From a virus (lineage: Duplodnaviria > Heunggongvirae > Uroviricota > Caudoviricetes), in IMG/VR virus record IMGVR_UViG_3300030125_000009: a DNA stretch of 14,358 nucleotides. One strand, written 5' to 3'. The notes under the pieces are model-generated. The model was not told where the DNA came from and ran no database searches. It saw nothing but the letters and a program-made list of their open reading frames with translations. Positions 1,523 through 14,260 of the stretch are shown here, in pieces. Numbering within the stretch: position 1 is the first letter of the stretch; each line of letters begins with the position of its first letter. The translations under genes were made by a program, and so were the position numbers.

Positions 1523-2083
1523 TTAGTGCATGATGTTTGCCATCTCATAGGCGTCAGCCAGCAATTCCATCTCTGACTTGTTCAGCAAGGTGAATTCTTT
1601 CTTGCCTCCAACCACACCATCGGCATGAACGGGGACCAGCCAGGGGTATTTTTCTCTTACTTCAGCCGGTGCTGCATGCTAGTGGTGCCATCTACAAAGG
1701 GGCAATTGCTTTTTGTGACAACCCGGCGCGGTACGACCGGAGATATGGTGCAGAGACACCTCTTCAGATATTACTCCATGCATGTAGCAGGCAATGCAGG
1801 GGAGAGCGCCAAGAGCATTGGCGATGCTCCGTTCCTCCGCTGTCGGTGTTCGCCCCTTCAAGCCACGAGATTTTATCTTTACCGCACTTTTCCGCGTTTT
1901 GCTGGCTGGTGGGCGCTCTTTCTGTTTAGCGATACGACGGTCGATAGAATCCCGCATTTTCTGATATTGCGATTCTCGCCAGGCGGGGTCAGCCAACTTT
2001 TCCCGTTGCCGAGCGATCGCTCGTTCTCTGGCTGCCTTCTGCCACTCGCGGCGCTGTTCAAGTTTTTGTTCGATTGTTTTCAT
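1523..2083 (-). pseudogene. ref: ref (P1 recombination enhancement function, HNH-type nuclease) interrupted by in-frame TAG amber codon at 1681-1679; truncated product 134 aa, full frame 186 codons
   Basis: Translation from ATG 2083 gives MKTIEQKLEQRREWQKAARERAIARQ...CHKKQLPLCRWHH, then TAG, then the same frame continues HAAPAEVREKYPWLVPVHADGVVGGKKEFTLLNKSEMELLADAYEMANIMH to TAA at 1525-1523. The 186-codon total matches the P1 Ref length I recall. Confidence 0.75.
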
Positions 2084-2692: not shown

Positions 2693-3724
2693 CTAATTGC
2701 CATCTTCCAGCAGGCGCACCATTGCCCCTGTTTCACTATCCAGGTTACGGATATAGTTCATGACAATATTTACGTTGGTCCAGCCACCAGCTTGCATGAT
2801 CTCCGGTATTGAAACTCCGGCACGGGCCATATCTCGCGCGGCTCCGACACGGGCACTGTGTCCAGACCAGGCCAGGTACCTCTGTCCAGAGTCATCCTTA
2901 GCCCCGTAAATCAATCGGTGAGTTGCTTCAAAAATCCCTTCTAGGGCGCGAGTTGATAGCTGGCTGGTGGGTGATGGCGAGGCAACACCATTTTTTCTGA
3001 CCCGGCAAAACAGGTAGTTATTCGGATCATCAGCCACACCAGAGACAGAAATCCATCGTTCGACCAGTTTAGTTACCCCCAGGCTAAGTGCCTTCTCTAC
3101 ACCTGCGGTGCTAACCAGCGTTTTCGTTCTGCCAATATGGATTAACATTCTCCCACCGTCAGTACGTGAGATATCTTTAACCCTGATCCTGGCAATTTCG
3201 GCTATACGTAACAGGGTGTTATAAGCAATCCCCAGAAATGCCAGATTACGTATATCCTGGCAGCGATCGCTATTTTCCATGAGTGAACGAACCTGGTCGA
3301 AATCAGTGCGTTCGAACGCTAGTGCCTGTTTTGCACGTTCACCGGCATCAACGTTTTCTTTTCGGATCCGCCGCATAACCAGTGAAACAGCATTGCTATC
3401 ACTTGGTCGCTGCAGCCCGGACCGACGATGAAGCATGTTTAGCTGGCCCAAATGTTGCTGGATAGTTTTTACTGCCAGACCGCGCGCCTGAAGATATAGA
3501 AGATAATCGCGAACATCTTCAGGTTCTGCGGGAAACCATTTCCGGTTATTCAACTTGCACCATGCCGCCCACGACCGGCAAACGGACAGAAGCATTTTCC
3601 AGGTATGCTCAGAAAACGCCTGGCGATCCCTGAACATGTCCATCAGGTTCTTGCGAACCTCATCACTCGTTGCATCGACCGGCAATGCAGGCAAATTTTG
3701 GTGTACGGTCAGTAAATTGGACAT
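2693..3724 (-). CDS. cre: Cre site-specific tyrosine recombinase, 343 aa (variant)
   Basis: Translation MSNLLTVHQNLPALPVDATSDEVRKNLMDMFRDRQAFSEHTWKMLLSVCRSWAAWCKLNNRKWFPAEPEDVRDYLLYLQARGLAVKTIQQH... is Cre. It differs from the canonical Cre I remember at three positions (GVASPSPTSQ versus GVAAPSATSQ; C-terminal GN versus GD). Confidence 0.97.
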   Translation of the reverse strand: MSNLLTVHQNLPALPVDATSDEVRKNLMDMFRDRQAFSEHTWKMLLSVCRSWAAWCKLNNRKWFPAEPEDVRDYLLYLQARGLAVKTIQQHLGQLNMLHRRSGLQRPSDSNAVSLVMRRIRKENVDAGERAKQALAFERTDFDQVRSLMENSDRCQDIRNLAFLGIAYNTLLRIAEIARIRVKDISRTDGGRMLIHIGRTKTLVSTAGVEKALSLGVTKLVERWISVSGVADDPNNYLFCRVRKNGVASPSPTSQLSTRALEGIFEATHRLIYGAKDDSGQRYLAWSGHSARVGAARDMARAGVSIPEIMQAGGWTNVNIVMNYIRNLDSETGAMVRLLEDGN

Positions 3725-4877: not shown

Positions 4878-5729
4878 ATGATAAATTATGTCTACGGCGA
4901 ACAACTGTACCAGGAGTTCGTCAGCTTCAGGGATCTCTTTCTAAAAAAAGCTGTTGCACGCGCCCAACACGTTGATACAGCCAGCGACGGTCGTCCTGTA
5001 CGCCCGGTTGTCGTTCTACCGTTCAAAGAAACTGACAGCATTCAGGCTGAAATTGATAAATGGACTTTAATGGCGCGGGAACTGGAACAGTACCCAGACC
5101 TCAATATCCCAAAGACTATTTTATATCCAGTGCCTAACATCCTTCGCGGTGTGCGCAAGGTTACAACTTATCAGACAGAAGCTGTGAACAGCGTCAACAT
5201 GACCGCTGGCCGCATTATTCATCTGATTGATAAGGACATTCGCATCCAAAAAAGCGCGGGGATCAATGAGCACAGTGCGAAATACATAGAGAACCTGGAA
5301 GCAACAAAAGAGCTAATGAGGCAGTACCCGGAGGATGAAAAATTCCGTATGCGCGTACACGGCTTTAGCGAAACAATGCTGCGCGTCCATTACATTTCCA
5401 GTAGCCCTAACTACAATGATGGTAAATCAGTTAGTTACCATGTGCCGCTGTGTGGTGTGTTTATCTGCGATGAAACTCTCCGTGATGGAATCATCATCAA
5501 CGGTGAATTCGAGAAAGCAAAATTTAGCCTTTATGACTCTATAGAACCGATCATCTGCGACCGCTGGCCGCAGGCAAAAATATATCGCCTGGCAGATATT
5601 GAAAATGTAAAAAAACAAATTGCCATCACTCGCGAAGAGAAAAAGGTCAAATCAGCCGCATCAGTTACGCGCAGCCGTAAAACCAAGAAGGGGCAGCCAG
5701 TAAACGACAACCCCGAAAGCGCGCAATAA
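4878..5729 (+). CDS. c1: C1 repressor of lysogeny, 283 aa
   Basis: Translation MINYVYGEQLYQEFVSFRDLFLKKAVARAQHVD... at 283 aa matches P1 C1 as I recall it; strong Shine-Dalgarno GGAGGAGG; many copies of its operator are present in the window. Confidence 0.93.
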   Translation: MINYVYGEQLYQEFVSFRDLFLKKAVARAQHVDTASDGRPVRPVVVLPFKETDSIQAEIDKWTLMARELEQYPDLNIPKTILYPVPNILRGVRKVTTYQTEAVNSVNMTAGRIIHLIDKDIRIQKSAGINEHSAKYIENLEATKELMRQYPEDEKFRMRVHGFSETMLRVHYISSSPNYNDGKSVSYHVPLCGVFICDETLRDGIIINGEFEKAKFSLYDSIEPIICDRWPQAKIYRLADIENVKKQIAITREEKKVKSAASVTRSRKTKKGQPVNDNPESAQ

Positions 5730-5734
5730 ATTAT

Positions 5735-5752
5735 GCCCGGCATCAACCGGGC
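5735..5752. terminator. GC-rich hairpin (gcccgg-catcaa-ccgggc) between convergent c1 and ant; possible bidirectional terminator
   Basis: A 6-bp GC stem seen directly, flanked by T/A-rich sequence on both sides; sits in the 32-bp gap between the two stop codons. Confidence 0.45.
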
Positions 5753-5761
5753 ATTCTTCCA

Positions 5762-6628
5762 TTATTCAGCCGCCACCGGTTTTAACAAGCCAGCATCGAG
5801 CAGTTTACGCGTCAACCACTGCTGGCCTTTACCCGTTAATTGAGGCGTCAACCGTATCTGGTAGCCATCTTCATCATCCAGCACCACTTCTTTCACCGTG
5901 AAATACCCCGCGTTGATGTACTGCTGGAACGGCACATTTTTACGTCCACCGGACGCTATCAGGATGCCGTTCTCCCGTAACCAGACAAACAGCGCGTTTT
6001 GCTTAAGTCCAACAACCTTTGCAAAATTCCCAATCAGGATCCCTTTAGCTACTGATACCCGGTCGGCAAAATCGACTTTAGGAGCGGCGGCCACCAGCTG
6101 CTGATTTAGCTGGTGGGCTTTCTGTTCCAGAAGCTGCTTTTGTTCAGCCAGTTCGGCAGCCAGGCGCAGAGCTTCTGGAAGCGTCTGGGGGATTGCAACC
6201 GGTTGCTGTTCTTTTTGCCGGAAGTAGCTGTCTTCCAGTTTTTCAAAGAATGCCCATGCCTGATCGGTTTCGAGCATTTTAGCGTGGCGGGCTGCGCCGC
6301 GTTCCGTCCAGAGGATGAGTGAGCGGGCTTTAGGAGAGATAGGATTTTGTGAGTTACTTAAAGTCACCCGCAAATTGTTCAAATCATCTCCAATAACTTT
6401 ATAGAAATGCTTGCCTTCACAAAAACGTTCAGCATTACGGGAAAAGTTCTTCTTGATGTTATCCGCATCTGTCCCATACCCCTTAGCAAGGATCTTAGTT
6501 GTCACTACACGCACTCCCTGCCACTCTAGAACGGGAATTTCATCCGGCTGACTTTGAACAACCACCAGTTCTGATTCCTGAACTAAAGGTGTATTAATTT
6601 TTTCAGATTTAACGTTAGTAGCTTTCAT
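5762..6628 (-). CDS. ant2: Ant2, 288 aa, in-frame internal initiation product of the ant ORF
   Basis: Internal ATG at 6628 (MKATNVKSEK...) has its own strong Shine-Dalgarno AAGGAGG 8 nt upstream, in the same frame as ant1; this mirrors the P1 ant1/ant2 arrangement. Confidence 0.6.
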   Translation of the reverse strand: MKATNVKSEKINTPLVQESELVVVQSQPDEIPVLEWQGVRVVTTKILAKGYGTDADNIKKNFSRNAERFCEGKHFYKVIGDDLNNLRVTLSNSQNPISPKARSLILWTERGAARHAKMLETDQAWAFFEKLEDSYFRQKEQQPVAIPQTLPEALRLAAELAEQKQLLEQKAHQLNQQLVAAAPKVDFADRVSVAKGILIGNFAKVVGLKQNALFVWLRENGILIASGGRKNVPFQQYINAGYFTVKEVVLDDEDGYQIRLTPQLTGKGQQWLTRKLLDAGLLKPVAAE

Positions 6629-6877
6629 TCTGTGTGCCTCCTTGCGTGTTTCGGCTGCGACGGTTGCGTAATTCAGATGCCCCTGTTCGAGCAGGTATTC
6701 ACGGATATCAGACAGCAGGATACGGTGAACAGCGTTCTTGTCCTTTCTCCGGTAAAGTTGTTTGGTGATCATGAAGTAGTTGGCAATAACGCCAGGTATA
6801 TCCCTGGTACTGATACAGGCAGAGTGCTGTTCAATTGCCTCGATCATCTCTTCACGGGTAACTAACGATGTTCTCAT
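5762..6877 (-). CDS. ant1: Antirepressor Ant1, 371 aa (ORF6N/KilA-N-like N-terminal region plus Ant C-terminal domain); a second in-frame start gives Ant2
   Basis: ATG at 6877 preceded by AGGAGGG; the icd stop overlaps it (ATGA). Antirepressor-family domain assignment is from memory of the family, not from a search. Confidence 0.8.
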   Translation of the reverse strand: MRTSLVTREEMIEAIEQHSACISTRDIPGVIANYFMITKQLYRRKDKNAVHRILLSDIREYLLEQGHLNYATVAAETRKEAHRMKATNVKSEKINTPLVQESELVVVQSQPDEIPVLEWQGVRVVTTKILAKGYGTDADNIKKNFSRNAERFCEGKHFYKVIGDDLNNLRVTLSNSQNPISPKARSLILWTERGAARHAKMLETDQAWAFFEKLEDSYFRQKEQQPVAIPQTLPEALRLAAELAEQKQLLEQKAHQLNQQLVAAAPKVDFADRVSVAKGILIGNFAKVVGLKQNALFVWLRENGILIASGGRKNVPFQQYINAGYFTVKEVVLDDEDGYQIRLTPQLTGKGQQWLTRKLLDAGLLKPVAAE

Positions 6878-7095
6878 AGTCCCTCCTGAGCAGAAGCGTT
6901 AACAGGGAGGCACCAGTAACTGAGAGAATTGCGTGAATCAGTGGAAAAACGGGCAGAGAAAATACATGGGGCGTCAGGAAGCTGAGAGCGGGCCTCATCT
7001 TCTGTCGGTGCAATAACGAAGTGATAGTGACGTTTTTGGCAGGAGTAAAAGCGCCAGATAAATTCAGGATGAGTTGGGGTAGGGATAGTAGCCAT
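6874..7095 (-). CDS. icd: Icd-like protein (interference with cell division), 73 aa, translationally coupled to ant1
   Basis: ATG at 7095 preceded by AAGGAGG; product MATIPTPTHPEFIWRFYSCQKRHYHFVIAPTEDEARSQLPDAPCIFSARFSTDSRNSLSYWCLPVNASAQEGL; TGA stop overlaps the ant1 ATG; 73 codons equals the P1 icd length as I recall. Confidence 0.7.
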   Translation of the reverse strand: MATIPTPTHPEFIWRFYSCQKRHYHFVIAPTEDEARSQLPDAPCIFSARFSTDSRNSLSYWCLPVNASAQEGL

Positions 7096-7151
7096 ATTGG
7101 CAGCCTCCTTAGACGTTGGTATGTAACCACCGCAGAAGAGACCAATCTTGC

Positions 7152-7231
7152 TGGCGGTGGACTGTACGGAGTTGGCCTTACTGGCGTCCAAGGTAACCAG
7201 CCTACCCGAAGGTAGCCCCATACAGCCCACC
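7152..7231 (-). ncRNA. c4: Candidate c4-like antisense repressor RNA (about 80 nt, tRNA-like terminal stem, 3' GCCA)
   Basis: On the minus strand, GGUGGGCUGUAU pairs with GUACAGUCCACC as a 12-bp terminal stem, followed by GCCA; internal 5-bp hairpin with UUCG loop; the segment CCUUGGACG is complementary (9 bp, one G-U) to CGUCUAAGG, which overlaps the icd ribosome-binding site. Boundaries are approximate. Confidence 0.45.
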
Positions 7232-7260
7232 ATTGTAGAGGTGTGCGTGTACGCCGATAC

Positions 7261-7283
7261 AAAAAAAAGACGCGAGCGGCGTC
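7261..7283 (-). terminator. Rho-independent terminator downstream of pacB (hairpin GACGC-CGCUC-GCGUC plus U8)
   Basis: Hairpin followed by an 8-U run on the minus strand, about 150 nt after the pacB stop. Confidence 0.6.
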
Positions 7284-7414
7284 TGTATCGCCTTAGACTT
7301 AAGCGGGAGGCCAATCCCGGCACCCGTTTTAATGAGGTGCCTGATAAGCATAAACCGAAAATGCCTCAAGGCGCAAGAGGTCAGGTTCAATGTAACATCG
7401 GCAGTTAAAAAACA

Positions 7415-7431
7415 CAATTTATTAGAGCAAA
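7415..7431 (-). promoter_or_regulatory. C1 operator (Op51-like, 15/17 match) directly after the pacB stop and upstream of the c4-icd-ant module
   Basis: Minus strand TTTGCTCTAATAAATTG. Confidence 0.65.
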
Positions 7432-7434
7432 TAT

Positions 7435-8919
7435 TCATTCATTAAGCCATGCCAGAGCTTCATCAACCTGCGCTTCGTCTTCGACGCTAAGCACTTCATC
7501 TTGGGGAACATAATCCGCCAGCATAGCGAAACAATATGTATCCCAATGGTCTGGTGAGTGCAGGTTGAGTTTTTTCTTCATATCCTCCTTACTCATCACC
7601 TTCCATTGACCTGCGGAGTTAATCCCTACAGGGATTTTCGACGCTTCCTCAATAGTTTCATTACCCTTATCCAGTCTCATACGACCAGATTTTACGGCCT
7701 CTGCGGCTTGAACGTTGGCATAAGCACGTTTATCAAAGTACAGGCTCTTATCTTCACGGCTATGCATCTTTTTACCCCAGCGTATACGCTGTACGGTAAT
7801 ACCATAATACTCGTACATCAGATCCGCCGTTGCTTTACCCAGGCCATCGCCGTCTATCGCTATGGTAATATTTGGGAATCGCTCAGGATTACATTCTGCG
7901 AAAATTTTGGCGGCAAGCTGCGTTTCTGTAACGTCTGTGTATTCCAGCATTCGATAGTTGATTACACGGCGTTTATTTCTCTGGCCGGACACCATCATGA
8001 TATTGATAACGGACTTATCCCTTCCCGTACCACCAGCAACGTCCACACATGCAAGCCAGCCCCATCCTTTGGCAATCTTGACTTTCCGCCGCGTTGCACG
8101 TTCAACCTCATCACGTCCAAGAAGGAAGCCATCCTGTGATTTAGGGAATAGGCCGCGTACCTTAATCATGTACATAGGGTTATCGCGCCCGCCGTACTCC
8201 GCCAGCTTCATTTTGATAAATGCTGGCGTTACCAGCGGTGATTCCTCACTGTTAAGCGTGATCGCCGTATAAACGCCATCAGGGTTACCAGGACGCTTGG
8301 CCAGTTTATGGTGAGTATCGTAGAAATAGCCGCTTGGGCGTGTAGGCTGTGACAGTAATAAGATGCGGTTATCCTGTCCGGTAAGAGCACCGGTGATGAT
8401 ACCGAAAGCTCTATCACTGACACCGGAGGCTTCATCGATAATATACAGAAGATGATCTGCGTGTTCACCGGCGAGAGCTTCTTCACTTCCCAGACGAAAG
8501 CCCTTCGGTACTACAGTCCATACACCTTTACCAGTAACCTCATAGAAAGCGGTTTCTGTCAGAACAAAATAATCAGCAAGCCACGGAAAACGGCTGGTGG
8601 CCGTAGCCCAGTTTATCTTGATGTACTTGAATATACCGGTCATTACCTGCTGAATTTTGTTCGCAACGATAATGGCGCGGGCACCGGGATACATGATTAT
8701 GAACAACATGATCATGATAGAAGTCATGTCTGATTTCCCGGTACCGTGACCAGACGAAACAGATGTCTTGCTACCCTGTTCCTGCACAGACTCAATAATC
8801 AGATCCTGCTGCCAGGTAGGTGTTTTGCCGAACAAAACATCAGCGGCAGCAATCCAGTCATAACGATATAGCGCCACCAGCTCGCGCCAACGTGGATCCG
8901 TTACGCAACTTCTGGCCAT
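7435..8919 (-). CDS. pacB: PacB, pacase (terminase) large subunit, 494 aa
   Basis: Translation [22 protein letters not shown]...; size and position (after pacA, start overlapping the pacA stop as TAATG) match P1 pacB. Confidence 0.9.
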
Positions 8920-10112
8920 TAATCATCATCCCCGTATAGCTTGCGGGTAACTTCTTCGTCTTCCTCCTCGTCTTCGTCCAGGTCTTGTTCCAGCCATGGG
9001 TCGTTTGATACACCTTCAGTATCAACATCTCCATAACCGCCTGTATCAACGATATCGGCGATTTCTTCCCTACGCTGCTCAATCCACAATGCGGCATCGG
9101 CGCGGCGGTTGGCGGCCCGTTCTCGCGCAACTTTGTCCAGATCTTCAAGAGAAGGGCCACCGACGGCTGTTTGCCTTTCCTCATCATCGGTATTGGTCTT
9201 AGGAGCACGCAGATCGGCTTTGATTTGCTCCAGCATCAGGGGCGGCACTTTTCCGCCATGCGCCTCGATGAATTCAGCTGCTTCCAGCACTGACCAGTTA
9301 TTTTCACGCTTTCGTTCGTATGCCAGCTTAACAATGCCAGCTTGCCCCATAGACAAAGCGTGCTTTTCCGCCTCCCGGCTTTCTTTTCGATAGTTATTCC
9401 GGATGCTGTAAATGGTGTTGATCAGGCTGCTTATCTGCGCGGAACAGCTGTTTAGCATGCTCGCGATACGGTATTCAGGCGGAGTACCTTCATCATCGTC
9501 TTTTTGCTGATCGCGCATTTCCTGCACCAGGCGAATACACGTATCCCTGGCGTTCTCCAGCATAAGGAGATGAGAAAGAGACTTTTCCAGAAGAGTGGTT
9601 TCCAGAACATCGGCCCCGGACCGACGCAACATAGCGCGCGCGGCCTTCCGCGCTTCAACGTTATCTATCAGGTAATCGCCAGCTTCGAATTCAAAGCGTT
9701 CACCATCATCATCCAGGGTGTCGCGTTCCAGGCGATCACGTAAGGTCCGGTGGGCGCGGGTGATCACGTCATGATCATCTGAACGATCATTTATGCGCTT
9801 ATTTTGGCGCTTCGCATTATCGACTGCGGCACTGACAACGGCATTAACTCTTTGTTTTTCATCCATTTCAGCCACAACGTGATCACCTGCACGTTGATCA
9901 TTAGCGTGATCAATGATCATGCTTTTTAGTGGTTTCCTGACAGGCTTATTTGGCTTACGGCTGTCCGCTGTTCCGGTGTCTTCTTTGAATGCACGGAGAT
10001 AACGACGTGCGGTGTTTGGGTTGAGATTAAACTCGGCGGCATATTGTGCGATGGTGTAACCACCATCTCGCGCCAGGCGAGCAAAATTCTTCTTGTGATC
10101 GTCCCAGGTCAC
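8919..10112 (-). CDS. pacA: PacA, pacase small subunit, 397 aa, with the pac site inside its coding sequence; GTG start
   Basis: Translation (V/M)[41 protein letters not shown]... with acidic C-terminal tail; GTG start preceded by AAGGAAG and an in-frame TAA just upstream. Confidence 0.9.
9734..9919. other. pac: pac packaging site: two clusters of TGATCA/GATC hexamers (Dam sites) within pacA
   Basis: TGATCA at 9761, 9772, 9880, 9895, 9907 and 9914, plus CGATCA at 9733 and 9785, flanking a spacer of about 90 bp; matches the known P1 pac architecture. Confidence 0.8.
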
Positions 10113-10198
10113 TTATGCTTCCTTTCGTATAAAACTCTTTTTGACGCGAGGGTAACGAAAGTCACATGTCAAAAGGCCCGGAACGGGCAAGCAATCAA

Positions 10199-10651
10199 TC
10201 AGATACGTGCGGATGTGGCATTACCGTAATGACGGTGCTGACGGACCACCTTATTGAAAAATTGACGCGCCATTACCCAAGGCTGGTGCTCCCGGCGTTC
10301 CTTTTCGTCCTGCGTCATATAGAGTTCGTTCTGGAGTTTTTCATCAAACCGGCGCGGAGCGCGACTGCGGCGAAAGAATTCAGGATTCAGAGAGTGGATC
10401 TGAAATCTACGTGGGCGTGTACTGTCATCAATCAAAACAGACGAATACTTAGACACAGCGATAGCCTTTAAGCGCAGATAAACATCGCGCTTATCGACAT
10501 CCAGATGCGGGTATTCCTTTTCAAGAATTGCTGCGAGTTCTTTCGCTGATAGAAGAGATTTAGTGCGGATCATGTAATCCGCAATCTCGTACGATGTTAT
10601 TCGTGAGTGATTTATTTCCATGAAGTGGCGTCCCTGCCAGTTAAGTAACAT
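10199..10651 (-). CDS. lpa: Lpa (late promoter activator, gp10)-like protein, 150 aa
   Basis: Position immediately upstream of pacA; a C1 operator lies in its promoter region; Shine-Dalgarno AGGTGACAGG before the ATG. Identity is by synteny and size, not sequence recall. Confidence 0.7.
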   Translation of the reverse strand: MLLNWQGRHFMEINHSRITSYEIADYMIRTKSLLSAKELAAILEKEYPHLDVDKRDVYLRLKAIAVSKYSSVLIDDSTRPRRFQIHSLNPEFFRRSRAPRRFDEKLQNELYMTQDEKERREHQPWVMARQFFNKVVRQHRHYGNATSARI

Positions 10652-12772: not shown

Positions 12773-14260
12773 ATGAAAATGACAAGTATTCAACAACGTG
12801 CAGAGCTTCATCGTCAAATCTGGCAAATTGCTAACGATGTCAGGGGTTCGGTCGATGGATGGGATTTTAAGCAATACGTTCTGGGCGCACTTTTCTACCG
12901 TTTTATCAGCGAAAATTTTTCCAGTTATATTGAAGCCGGTGATGACAGTATCTGTTATGCGAAACTGGATGACAGCGTAATTACTGATGACATTAAAGAC
13001 GATGCCATCAAAACTAAAGGCTACTTCATCTACCCCAGTCAGCTTTTCTGCAACGTAGCTGCGAAAGCAAATACCAATGACAGACTGAACGCAGATTTAA
13101 ACAGCATCTTCGTTGCTATCGAAAGTTCTGCTTACGGCTACCCTTCAGAAGCAGACATCAAAGGTTTGTTTGCTGATTTCGATACCACCAGTAACCGCCT
13201 GGGTAACACCGTTAAAGATAAAAATGCCCGCCTGGCTGCGGTTCTGAAAGGGGTTGAAGGGTTAAAACTTGGTGACTTCAACGAACATCAGATTGACCTG
13301 TTCGGTGATGCCTATGAGTTCCTGATTTCTAACTATGCGGCAAATGCCGGTAAGTCAGGCGGTGAGTTCTTTACACCGCAGCACGTCTCCAAGCTGATTG
13401 CACAACTGGCTATGCACGGGCAGACCAACGTTAACAAAATCTACGACCCGGCAGCGGGTTCCGGCTCACTGTTGTTGCAGGCTAAAAAGCAGTTTGATAA
13501 CCATATCATCGAAGAAGGCTTTTTTGGTCAGGAAATCAACCATACAACCTATAACCTGGCACGTATGAACATGTTTTTGCACAACATCAACTACGACAAG
13601 TTTGATATCAAGCTGGGTAATACACTGACTGAGCCACACTTCAGAGATGAAAAACCGTTTGATGCCATCGTTTCTAACCCGCCGTATTCGGTGAAATGGA
13701 TTGGCAGCGATGACCCGACGCTGATTAACGATGAACGTTTTGCCCCGGCTGGCGTCCTGGCCCCCAAATCCAAAGCTGACTTTGCGTTTGTACTACATGC
13801 GCTGAACTATCTTTCGGCCAAAGGTCGTGCTGCGATTGTCTGCTTCCCGGGTATTTTTTACCGTGGCGGCGCGGAGCAGAAAATCCGTCAGTATCTGGTC
13901 GATAATAACTATGTCGAAACCGTGATTTCACTGGCACCGAACCTGTTCTTTGGCACCACTATTGCTGTAAACATTCTGGTGCTGTCTAAACATAAAACGG
14001 ATACCAAAGTTCAGTTTATTGATGCCAGCGAACTGTTCAAAAAAGAAACCAACAACAATATCCTGACCGATGCCCATATCGAACAGATTATGCAGGTATT
14101 TGCCAGCAAGGAAGATGTTGCTCATCTGGCGAAATCTGTTGCGTTTGAGACTGTTGTCGCGAATGACTATAACCTGTCGGTGAGCAGCTATGTGGAAGCG
14201 AAAGATAACCGCGAAATTATCGATATCGGTGAGCTGAATGCAGAGCTGAAAACCAGGTGA
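12773..14260 (+). CDS. hsdM: Type I restriction-modification N6-adenine DNA methyltransferase subunit HsdM, 495 aa, 3' end truncated by IS1
   Basis: N-terminus [25 protein letters not shown]..., AdoMet-binding motif [10 protein letters not shown] and catalytic NPPY motif (VSNPPYS). The stop codon TGA at 14258-14260 lies inside the IS1 terminal inverted repeat. Confidence 0.88.

What the first reader, a model, noticed from the sequence alone, without database searches (positions are those of the whole stretch)
5762..7431. A complete immI-like module (operator, c4-like RNA, icd, ant1/ant2) sits between c1 and the pac operon
Seen in sequence: a C1-operator match (7415-7431), a candidate structured RNA, a 73-codon ORF whose TGA overlaps the ATG of a 371-codon antirepressor ORF, and a second in-frame start with its own Shine-Dalgarno. 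This is the architecture described for the P1/P7 immI region (c4-icd-ant1/ant2). As I recall the P1 map, immI lies far from immC (near sim/kilA/repL), and no sim, kilA or repL flank it here. If that recollection holds, this element is a mosaic in which the antirepressor circuit has been placed next to the primary repressor gene.
Basis: partly seen in the sequence, partly recalled or inferred. Interest (0 to 1): 0.6.

Follow-up and report, generated by a model that had tools for sequence, protein, structure and literature searches.

The report
Second antisense-RNA antirepressor module in P1-like plasmid
This P1-like phage-plasmid carries, between its DNA-packaging genes and its main repressor gene, a complete extra copy of the "immI" switch (operator, antisense RNA, cell-division inhibitor, antirepressor); it is real and looks functional, but it is common in E. 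coli plasmids and its gene-level presence has already been noted.

Summary
Rfam finds a C4 antisense RNA (75.9 bits) preceded by an isrK-type leader (60.8 bits). That leader is the homologue of P1's a1/b1 leader. A 73-aa Icd (80% identical to P1 Icd) overlaps by ATGA a 371-aa Ant with a KilAC domain. The Ant2 internal start is conserved, and a C1 operator overlaps the first promoter.

P1, P7 and SJ46 have only 24 nt between pacB and c1, so the block really is absent there. It is not a relocated immI, though. Complete relatives (RCS47, JL22, 673R5, pD72-mcr1) keep the canonical sim-side immI as well. The module is therefore a second, paralogous circuit.

Its C4 recognition sites (a', b') match its own a1/b1 and a2/b2. 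They differ from P1, P7 and pD72 canonical targets at 6-7 positions; heteroimmune P1 and P7 differ at 3. Across 56 copies I found five specificity classes, each fully complementary.

The layout occurs in 238 PLSDB plasmids and 249 of 5,426 complete E. coli genomes. Venturini et al. 2019 mention the ant insertion. Verdict: supported, and a new member of a known kind. Interest is modest.

The parts
7415..7431 (-). C1 operator (homologue of P1 Oc4/Op51); overlaps the -35 of the upstream promoter by 3 nt, as in P1
   Evidence: 15/17 match to the consensus; 6 operator-like hits in the window vs 0.06 expected; aligns with P1 Oc4
7389..7417 (-). Inferred upstream promoter (TTGTGT-N17-TACATT), positional equivalent of P1 P2c4/P51a
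   Evidence: Alignment to the annotated P1 promoter; read from the sequence. Not flagged by the consensus scan, so this is an inference
7347..7376 (-). Inferred second promoter (TTGCGC-N18-TATGCT), placing the transcription start at about 7340, the 5' end of the isrK model
   Evidence: The same -35 and position occur in D6, with TTGACT/TATATT in Stx phage P13374; homology to Stx phages begins at 7339. Inference
7263..7340 (-). isrK-type leader RNA, homologous to the P1 a1/b1 leader; carries a1 (7314-7308, TTGGCCT), b1 (7298-7291, GTCTAAGG) and an intrinsic terminator (stem 7284-7268 plus a T-run)
   Evidence: Rfam RF01394 60.8 bits; the P1 leader hits c4-a1b1 and, below threshold, isrK; terminator scan; a1/b1 are complementary to a'/b'
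7150..7237 (-). C4 antisense RNA; b' = CCUUGGAC (7193-7186, hairpin loop), a' = AGGCCAA (7178-7172, single-stranded)
   Evidence: Rfam RF01695 75.9 bits; 12 of 24 stem pairs show compensatory changes across 7 homologues
7104..7145 (-). C4 target region in the mRNA: a2 TTGGTCT (7145-7139), b2 GTCTAAGG (7114-7107), overlapping the icd Shine-Dalgarno AAGGAGG (7110-7104)
   Evidence: Complementarity 6 WC + 1 GU of 7 (a2) and 7 WC + 1 GU of 8 (b2); positional homology to the annotated P1 a2/b2
6874..7095 (-). icd, 73 aa, Icd-like cell-division inhibitor; its stop overlaps the ant start (ATGA)
   Evidence: 80% identical to P1 Icd; NCBIfam NF033153; 73 aa with the ATGA overlap in 39 of 39 related copies
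5762..6877 (-). ant1, 371 aa antirepressor: P1-Ant1-like N-terminus, ORF6N middle, KilAC C-terminus
   Evidence: Pfam, PHROG 63, BLASTP vs P1 Ant1
5762..6628 (-). ant2, nested in-frame product (288 aa) starting at codon 84 with its own AAGGAGG
   Evidence: Same codon as the annotated P1 ant2 start; Shine-Dalgarno plus ATG conserved in 36 of 39 copies
5733..5754 (.). GC-rich hairpin between the convergent ant and c1 stops (terminator-like)
   Evidence: Terminator scan; junction comparison with P1 and SJ46

Best explanation
This is a functional second, paralogous immI-type immunity module of a P1-like phage-plasmid, inserted in the 24-nt gap between the convergent pacB and c1 genes.

Proposed mechanism, by homology to P1/P7 immI:

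1. Transcription starts at two promoters just downstream of pacB. The upstream one is overlapped by a C1 operator.
2. The isrK-type leader carries a1 and b1 and ends in an intrinsic terminator. Read-through transcripts contain C4.
3. C4 is processed out of the transcript. Its a' and b' pair with a2 and b2 across the icd ribosome-binding site.
4. This blocks icd translation. Through the ATGA coupling and polarity, it also blocks ant1/ant2 expression.
5. If cognate C4 is absent or titrated, Icd and Ant are made, and Ant antagonises the repressor. The short leader RNA is a candidate decoy because its a1 pairs perfectly with a', whereas a2 has a G·U.

The C4 recognition code of this module is orthogonal to that of the canonical immI found on related elements, so the two circuits should operate independently.

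Shown here: the anatomy, the homology, the RNA fold, three-way complementarity, intactness across many copies, and coexistence with the canonical immI in relatives.

Inferred: the promoters, C4 processing, translational repression, the decoy role, and C1 as the target of Ant.
For: - **RNAs.** Rfam hits for C4 and isrK. The P1 leader hits c4-a1b1 and, below threshold, isrK, so the two leader families are homologous.
- **C4 fold.** 12 of 24 stem pairs show compensatory changes.
- **Site complementarity.** In 56 parsed copies, a1/a'/a2 and b1/b'/b2 are complementary, and the copies fall into five specificity classes.
- **Orthogonality.** Cross-matrix: the window C4 has 0 mismatches to its own target and 6-7 to the P1, P7 and pD72 canonical targets. 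Heteroimmune P1 and P7 differ at 3.
- **Proteins.** Icd is 80% and Ant 54% identical to the P1 proteins, with the Ant2 start conserved. In the 39 copies with enough downstream sequence, icd is intact in all 39 and ant is 340-372 aa in 35.
- **Operator.** It aligns with P1 Oc4 and overlaps the -35 in the same way.
- **Coexistence.** pD72-mcr1 carries two C4 genes, one per module. RCS47, JL22 and 673R5 also have the canonical immI.
- **Precedent for the leader.** IsrK, a terminated leader RNA, activates translation of a downstream antirepressor in trans (PMC4825925).
Against: - No expression or binding data exist for this module.
- Both inferred promoters are weak by consensus, and the scan did not flag them.
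- The window's class has G·U wobbles at a2:a' and at b:b', so repression might be leaky.
- The middle third of Ant is replaced by an ORF6N domain that P1 Ant1 lacks. This segment varies between copies, so the target could differ from C1.
- The window covers only 14 kb, so the presence of a canonical immI on this particular element is inferred from relatives.
Confidence: 0.8

Rival explanations
1. Relocated immI: this element has lost the canonical sim-side immI, and the pacB-c1 block is its only antirepressor circuit. This is the reading implied by the first reader.
For: The window shows only one module. Some P1-like plasmids have lost or disrupted the canonical immI and gained icd-ant homologues elsewhere, for example pSvP1 in PMC6906374.
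Against: All four complete relatives examined carry both modules: pD72-mcr1 and RCS47, JL22 and 673R5. The module is only about 75% identical to P1 immI at the DNA level and has a different leader type, so it is a diverged paralogue and not a transposed copy.
Confidence: 0.1
2. Lambdoid-type antirepressor used for prophage cross-talk. Ant (ORF6N + KilAC, Roi/Ant-like) would act mainly on repressors of other resident prophages, or bind DNA, and not on C1. The module would be a lambdoid cassette that has only acquired a C1 operator.
For: The leader and C4 are about 81% identical to Stx-phage loci, and the middle of ant is about 71% identical to Stx-phage roi/ant. The ORF6N domain is absent from P1 Ant1. 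The middle segment is a swappable cassette. Gifsy antirepressors act in trans on other prophages (PMC3121763, listed).
Against: The Ant1-specific N-terminus (about 65% identical) and the KilAC C-terminus (about 95% identical) are P1-type, and the Ant1/Ant2 nesting is kept. Some copies at the same site carry a P1-type middle. Control by a C1 operator ties the module to the C1 regulon.
Confidence: 0.15
3. Decaying passenger: a non-functional remnant of a recombination event that is merely hitch-hiking.
For: Four of 39 copies have a truncated ant. One locus shows a partial tandem duplication.
Against: icd is intact in 39 of 39 copies and ant in 35 of 39. There are 33 distinct Ant sequences that keep the reading frame. 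Every one of the five specificity classes is fully complementary at all three copies of each site. The module is present in 249 complete E. coli genomes.
Confidence: 0.03

Closest known systems
P1/P7 immI operon (Oc4/Op51, a1-b1 leader, c4, icd, ant1/ant2)
   Same: Same order and spacing of every part. The operator overlaps the -35 of the first promoter. The C4 fold is the same. a2/b2 lie across the icd Shine-Dalgarno. icd has 73 aa and overlaps ant by ATGA. Ant2 starts at codon 84. The C-terminus is KilAC.
   Different: The location is pacB-c1 instead of sim/kilA-repL. The leader scores as isrK, not c4-a1b1, and has a stronger intrinsic terminator. The a/b recognition sequences are unrelated to those of P1 or P7. 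The Ant middle is an ORF6N domain. It coexists with the canonical immI in relatives.
The same pacB-ant-c1 insertion in RCS47 (FO818745/NC_042128), pTZ20_1P, JL22, vB_EcoM-673R5 and pD72-mcr1
   Same: Identical site and architecture, with 86-98% DNA identity. [quoted passage not shown]
   Different: RCS47 and JL22 carry other C4 specificity classes. The published notes do not describe the operator, leader, C4 RNA or specificity.
IsrK-orf45-anrP locus of Salmonella Gifsy-1, and the isrK/C4 loci of Stx phages (e.g. P13374)
   Same: A terminated isrK leader is followed by a C4-like RNA and an antirepressor gene coupled by ATGA. The window leader is about 81% identical to Stx-phage loci.
   Different: Those loci have no P1-type icd, no Ant1/Ant2 nesting and no C1 operator. 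IsrK was shown to act as a trans activator; that role is only inferred here.
Phage D6 isrK-type c4-icd-ant module (MF356679, 74.0-75.2 kb)
   Same: isrK leader, C4, icd and an antirepressor. Its a/b code (TTGAGAC / GCAAAAGG) is identical to class II of the P1-like pacB-c1 modules. D6-like elements also carry two c4-icd regions (PMC6799933).
   Different: Different genomic neighbourhood (ref / pmgF-sim). No C1-consensus operator was seen upstream. The specificity class differs from that of the window.

Membership tests
P1/P7-type immI operon | C1 operator overlapping the operon promoter | tested here: met
   7431-7415 matches the consensus at 15/17, aligns to P1 Oc4 and overlaps the -35 by 3 nt
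P1/P7-type immI operon | C4 antisense RNA encoded in the leader of the transcript it controls | tested here: met
   RF01695 75.9 bits; compensatory stem changes
P1/P7-type immI operon | a'/b' of C4 complementary to a2/b2 covering the icd ribosome-binding site, and to upstream a1/b1 | tested here: met
   0 mismatches (with G·U wobbles) in the window; complementary in all 56 copies and five classes
P1/P7-type immI operon | icd, about 73 aa, translationally coupled to ant | tested here: met
   80% identical to P1 Icd, ATGA overlap, NF033153 hit
P1/P7-type immI operon | Nested ant1/ant2 antirepressor | tested here: met
   54% identical to Ant1, KilAC domain, internal Shine-Dalgarno plus ATG at codon 84
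P1/P7-type immI operon | Map position between sim and kilA-repL | tested here: not met
   Flanked by pacB and c1
P1/P7-type immI operon | Ant1/Ant2 bind and inactivate C1; C4 is processed by RNase P; repression of icd translation causes polarity on ant | not testable with these tools
   These need biochemistry or genetics
Rfam isrK (RF01394) | Score above gathering; three hairpins ending in a terminator; upstream of an antirepressor gene | tested here: met
   60.8 bits vs 50; terminator
Rfam isrK (RF01394) | Hfq binding and trans-activation of downstream translation | not testable with these tools
   Known only for Gifsy-1 IsrK (PMC4825925)

The most novel reading that the evidence does not exclude
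The pacB-c1 module is a hypervariable second immunity lock. Its two C4 recognition sites reassort combinatorially: three a-alleles and three b-alleles give five observed classes. At least one class is shared with the unrelated D6 phage-plasmid family. Together with a swappable middle cassette in Ant, this would form a population-level heteroimmunity code. That code would decide which P1-like and D6-like phage-plasmids can superinfect, co-reside with or induce one another. This matters because these elements carry mcr-1 and ESBL genes.
Probability: 0.35. Interest if true: 0.55.

Novelty: new member of a known kind. Interest (0 to 1): 0.33.

Why it matters
P1's tripartite immunity system is a textbook case, but it rests on two phages, P1 and P7, and one immI locus. 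About a quarter of sequenced P1-like plasmids carry a second C4/Icd/Ant circuit that is predicted to be orthogonal and comes in several specificity classes. So immunity and heteroimmunity in natural P1-like phage-plasmids are more layered than the model suggests. These elements spread mcr-1 and ESBL genes. Which of them can exclude, tolerate or induce each other is of practical interest, and the predicted C4 classes can be tested directly. The practical lesson for annotation is that the isrK hit and the 'ash family' pseudo-ORF in these plasmids mark an immI-type leader.

Tried and rejected
- **RNAduplex energies.** I computed them for full-length C4 against the target leaders. They were uninformative: every combination gave -28 to -44 kcal/mol, because intramolecular structure is ignored and the conserved stems cross-pair. 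I replaced this with a site-level mismatch matrix.
- **Consensus promoter scan.** It flagged neither inferred promoter. The promoter calls therefore rest on alignment to annotated P1 promoters and on conservation in D6 and Stx-phage loci.
- **Transposition.** I looked for target-site duplications or repeats at the insertion junctions and found none. The last roughly 20 nt of the insert loosely resemble the 24-nt P1 spacer, so I could not decide between insertion and deletion.
- **Link to a c1 allele.** The insert does not correlate with a particular c1 allele. SJ46 and phiW39 share 98%-identical flanks without it.
- **Literature.** The JL22 paper (PMC9603915) and the P7-like mcr-1 plasmid paper (PMC5786510) say nothing about this module.
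- **Searches not run.** I did not use the large protein-database searches or structure prediction, because the DNA-level and family-level evidence already answered the question.
Full report
**Context.** Read on its - strand, the window is collinear with the end and start of the P1 map. The order is phd/doc, pdcA/pdcB, lpa, pacA (10112-8919), pacB (8919-7435), then a 1.7-kb block. After the block come the convergent c1 (4878-5729, +; NCBIfam phage_rep_C1 at 612 bits), coi, cra and cre. The window is a P1-like phage-plasmid. The closest records are E. coli, E. albertii and E. marmotae plasmids at 98-99.7% identity.

**Observation check.**
- The operator TTTGCTCTAATAAATTG (7431-7415) matches the C1 consensus at 15 of 17 positions. 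The window holds six matches with up to 3 mismatches, against 0.06 expected. The other five lie where P1 has known operators.
- Rfam places a C4 antisense RNA at 7237-7150 (75.9 bits; gathering score 45).
- icd (7095-6874, 73 aa) is 80% identical to P1 Icd and hits NF033153. Its TGA overlaps the ant ATG as ATGA.
- ant (6877-5762, 371 aa) has a KilAC/ANT domain and an ORF6N domain. It matches PHROG 63 'anti-repressor Ant' at 1e-133.
- The second in-frame start (ATG 6628-6626, codon 84, preceded by AAGGAGG) is at the same codon as the annotated P1 ant2 start.

**Is the position unusual?** Relative to the reference phages, yes. P1 has 24 nt between the pacB and c1 stops. Its immI lies at 48.1-49.7 kb, between sim and kilA-repL. 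P7, SJ46 and phiW39 also lack the block; their matches split into two pieces covering 70% of the query. The junctions are clean: the pacB stop is followed directly by the operator. The block ends in a GC-rich hairpin (5754-5733) that abuts the c1 stop. I found no target duplication, so I cannot say whether the block was inserted or P1 lost it.

**Not a relocation.** pD72-mcr1 (NZ_CP035313) has the same block between pacB and c1. It also has a canonical c4-icd-ant-kilA-repL region. Rfam finds two C4 genes in it. One is preceded by a c4-a1b1 leader and the other by an isrK leader. RCS47, JL22 and vB_EcoM-673R5, which all have the pacB-c1 block, also have the canonical immI. The module is therefore a second, paralogous immI. 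For the element that holds this window, this is inferred from relatives.

**The isrK hit.** The P1 leader region that carries the annotated a1/b1 sites hits Rfam c4-a1b1 (51 bits). It also hits isrK below threshold (35 bits). The two Rfam families thus describe homologous leaders. Here the leader carries a1 (TTGGCCT, 7314-7308) and b1 (GTCTAAGG, 7298-7291). It ends in a terminator, with the stem at 7284-7268 followed by eight T.

The IsrK paper (PMC4825925) shows that a terminated IsrK RNA activates translation of the read-through isrK-orf45-anrP transcript in trans. It also notes a processed RNA downstream and compares IsrK to P4 SeqA. That is a precedent for the leader acting as more than a spacer.

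**Mosaic origin.** Homology to Stx phages (about 81%) starts exactly at the isrK 5' end (7339) and covers the leader and C4. icd and both ends of ant are P1-like (75-87% DNA identity). The ant middle resembles Stx-phage roi/ant (about 71%). At the protein level, residues 1-84 of Ant are about 65% identical to P1 Ant1 and the C-terminal 150 residues about 95%. The middle is replaced by an ORF6N domain.

**Evidence of function.**
- The C4 fold is supported by compensatory changes at 12 of 24 pairs across seven homologues.
- The recognition sites covary. An exact-match scan of IMG/VR with the operator-promoter sequence gave 52 loci.
- Together with the phage and plasmid copies, 56 modules could be parsed. 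In 50 of 56 the module follows the pacB stop directly. In 35 of 39 the c1 end lies about 1.7 kb downstream.
- The modules fall into five classes:

| Class | a site | b site | Copies |
|---|---|---|---|
| I (the window) | TTGGCCT / TTGGTCT | GTCTAAGG | 27 |
| II | TTGAGAC | GCAAAAGG | 12 |
| III | TTGGAAC | GCAAAAGG | 7 |
| IV | TTGAGAC | GTCAAAGG | 6 |
| V | TTGGAAC | GTCAAAGG | 4 |

- In every class, a' and b' of C4 are complementary to both the upstream and the downstream copies. Classes II-V reuse two a-alleles and two b-alleles in all four combinations, which looks like reassortment.
- In class I, a1 pairs perfectly with a', but a2 has a G·U. b1 and b2 each have one G·U.
- b2 overlaps the icd Shine-Dalgarno sequence (7110-7104).
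- Among the 39 copies with enough downstream sequence, icd is 73 aa with the ATGA overlap in all 39. ant is 340-372 aa in 35. The Ant2 Shine-Dalgarno plus ATG is kept in 36. There are 33 distinct Ant sequences.

**Orthogonality.** In a site-level matrix, the window C4 has no mismatches to its own target. It has 6-7 to the P1, P7 and pD72 canonical targets and at least 4 to the other four classes. P1 and P7 are experimentally heteroimmune through c4 (established knowledge: Citron and Schuster 1990), and they differ at only 3 positions. The two modules on one element should therefore not cross-regulate. This is a prediction from sequence.

**Promoters (inferred).** TTGTGT-N17-TACATT (7417-7389) aligns with the P1 promoter P2c4, and the operator overlaps it in the same way. 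TTGCGC-N18-TATGCT (7376-7347) would start transcription at about 7340, the 5' end of the isrK model. D6 has the same -35 in the same place, and Stx phage P13374 has TTGACT/TATATT. Neither promoter passed the consensus scan.

**Mechanism.** I propose the mechanism known for P1/P7 immI.
1. C4 is made from the leader of its own operon.
2. C4 pairs with a2/b2 and occludes the icd ribosome-binding site.
3. Without icd translation, ant1/ant2 are not expressed.
4. Loss or absence of cognate C4 releases Icd and Ant, and Ant antagonises the repressor.

C1 control of the upstream promoter ties the module to the C1 regulon. The terminated leader is a candidate C4 decoy. C1 as the target of Ant is plausible from the conserved N- and C-termini. 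It is not established, because the middle segment is a swappable cassette. That cassette has at least four ORF6N alleles, plus a P1-type middle in some copies.

**Prior knowledge and prevalence.** The full pacB-module-c1 stretch occurs in 238 of 854 matching PLSDB plasmids. It also occurs in 249 of 5,426 complete E. coli genomes and in phages RCS47, JL22 and 673R5.
- RCS47's record annotates the gene as ant.
- Venturini et al. [quoted passage not shown] RCS47' (PMC6906374).
- A second c4-icd region has been remarked on in D6-like prophages (PMC6799933).
- In the library available I found no description of this block as a complete operator/leader/C4/icd/ant1-ant2 circuit, of its specificity classes, or of its orthogonality to the canonical immI. 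That search is not exhaustive.

**Verdict.** It is a new member of a known kind (immI-type C4/Icd/Ant modules). It is common and partly noted in the literature. The specificity-class structure is the only part a specialist might find fresh.

Noticed in passing
window 1679-2080 (- strand): The ref gene (RecA-dependent nuclease) has a premature stop: LCRWHH*HAAPAEV, where pD72-mcr1 Ref has Q. This gives 133 aa instead of 186, and the Pfam RecA_dep_nuc match covers only profile positions 1-55 of 103.
   Followed up: partly
window 12773-14260 (+ strand): A type I restriction-modification methylase (HsdM; N6_Mtase 404 bits) abuts phd/doc. RCS47 has hot/humD at this position. pD72-mcr1 has the full hsdR-hsdS-hsdM set here.
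   Followed up: partly
L030 (IMGVR_UViG_2698536372_000019), rc coordinates about 7700-10540: Partial tandem duplication of the pacB end, operator, leader, icd and part of ant. The two operator copies are 1566 nt apart. This could be a real duplication or an assembly artefact.
   Followed up: partly
Ant residues about 85-225 (window about 6625-6200) and the homologous region in loci L015, L020, L029, L038, L056: The middle of Ant behaves as a swappable cassette between conserved N- and C-termini. There are at least four divergent ORF6N alleles. In L038 and L056 the middle is P1-Ant1-like.
   Followed up: partly
L009 (phage D6, MF356679) 3044-3330: D6's isrK-type c4-icd module uses exactly the same a/b recognition code (TTGAGAC / GCAAAAGG) as class II of the P1-like pacB-c1 modules (e.g. 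JL22). This suggests possible C4 cross-talk between two different phage-plasmid families.
   Followed up: partly
L065 (E. coli CH427 plasmid) 1583-1900; equivalent to window about 7438-7120: RefSeq/PGAP annotates a pseudogene 'ash family protein' across the operator, leader and c4 region. This is most likely a spurious ORF call over non-coding RNA genes.
   Followed up: no
L008 (Stx phage P13374) 3523-3606: An Rfam sRNA-Xcc1 hit (79.6 bits) lies just downstream of the isrK/C4-regulated Rha-type regulator gene, overlapping the annotated antB2.
   Followed up: no
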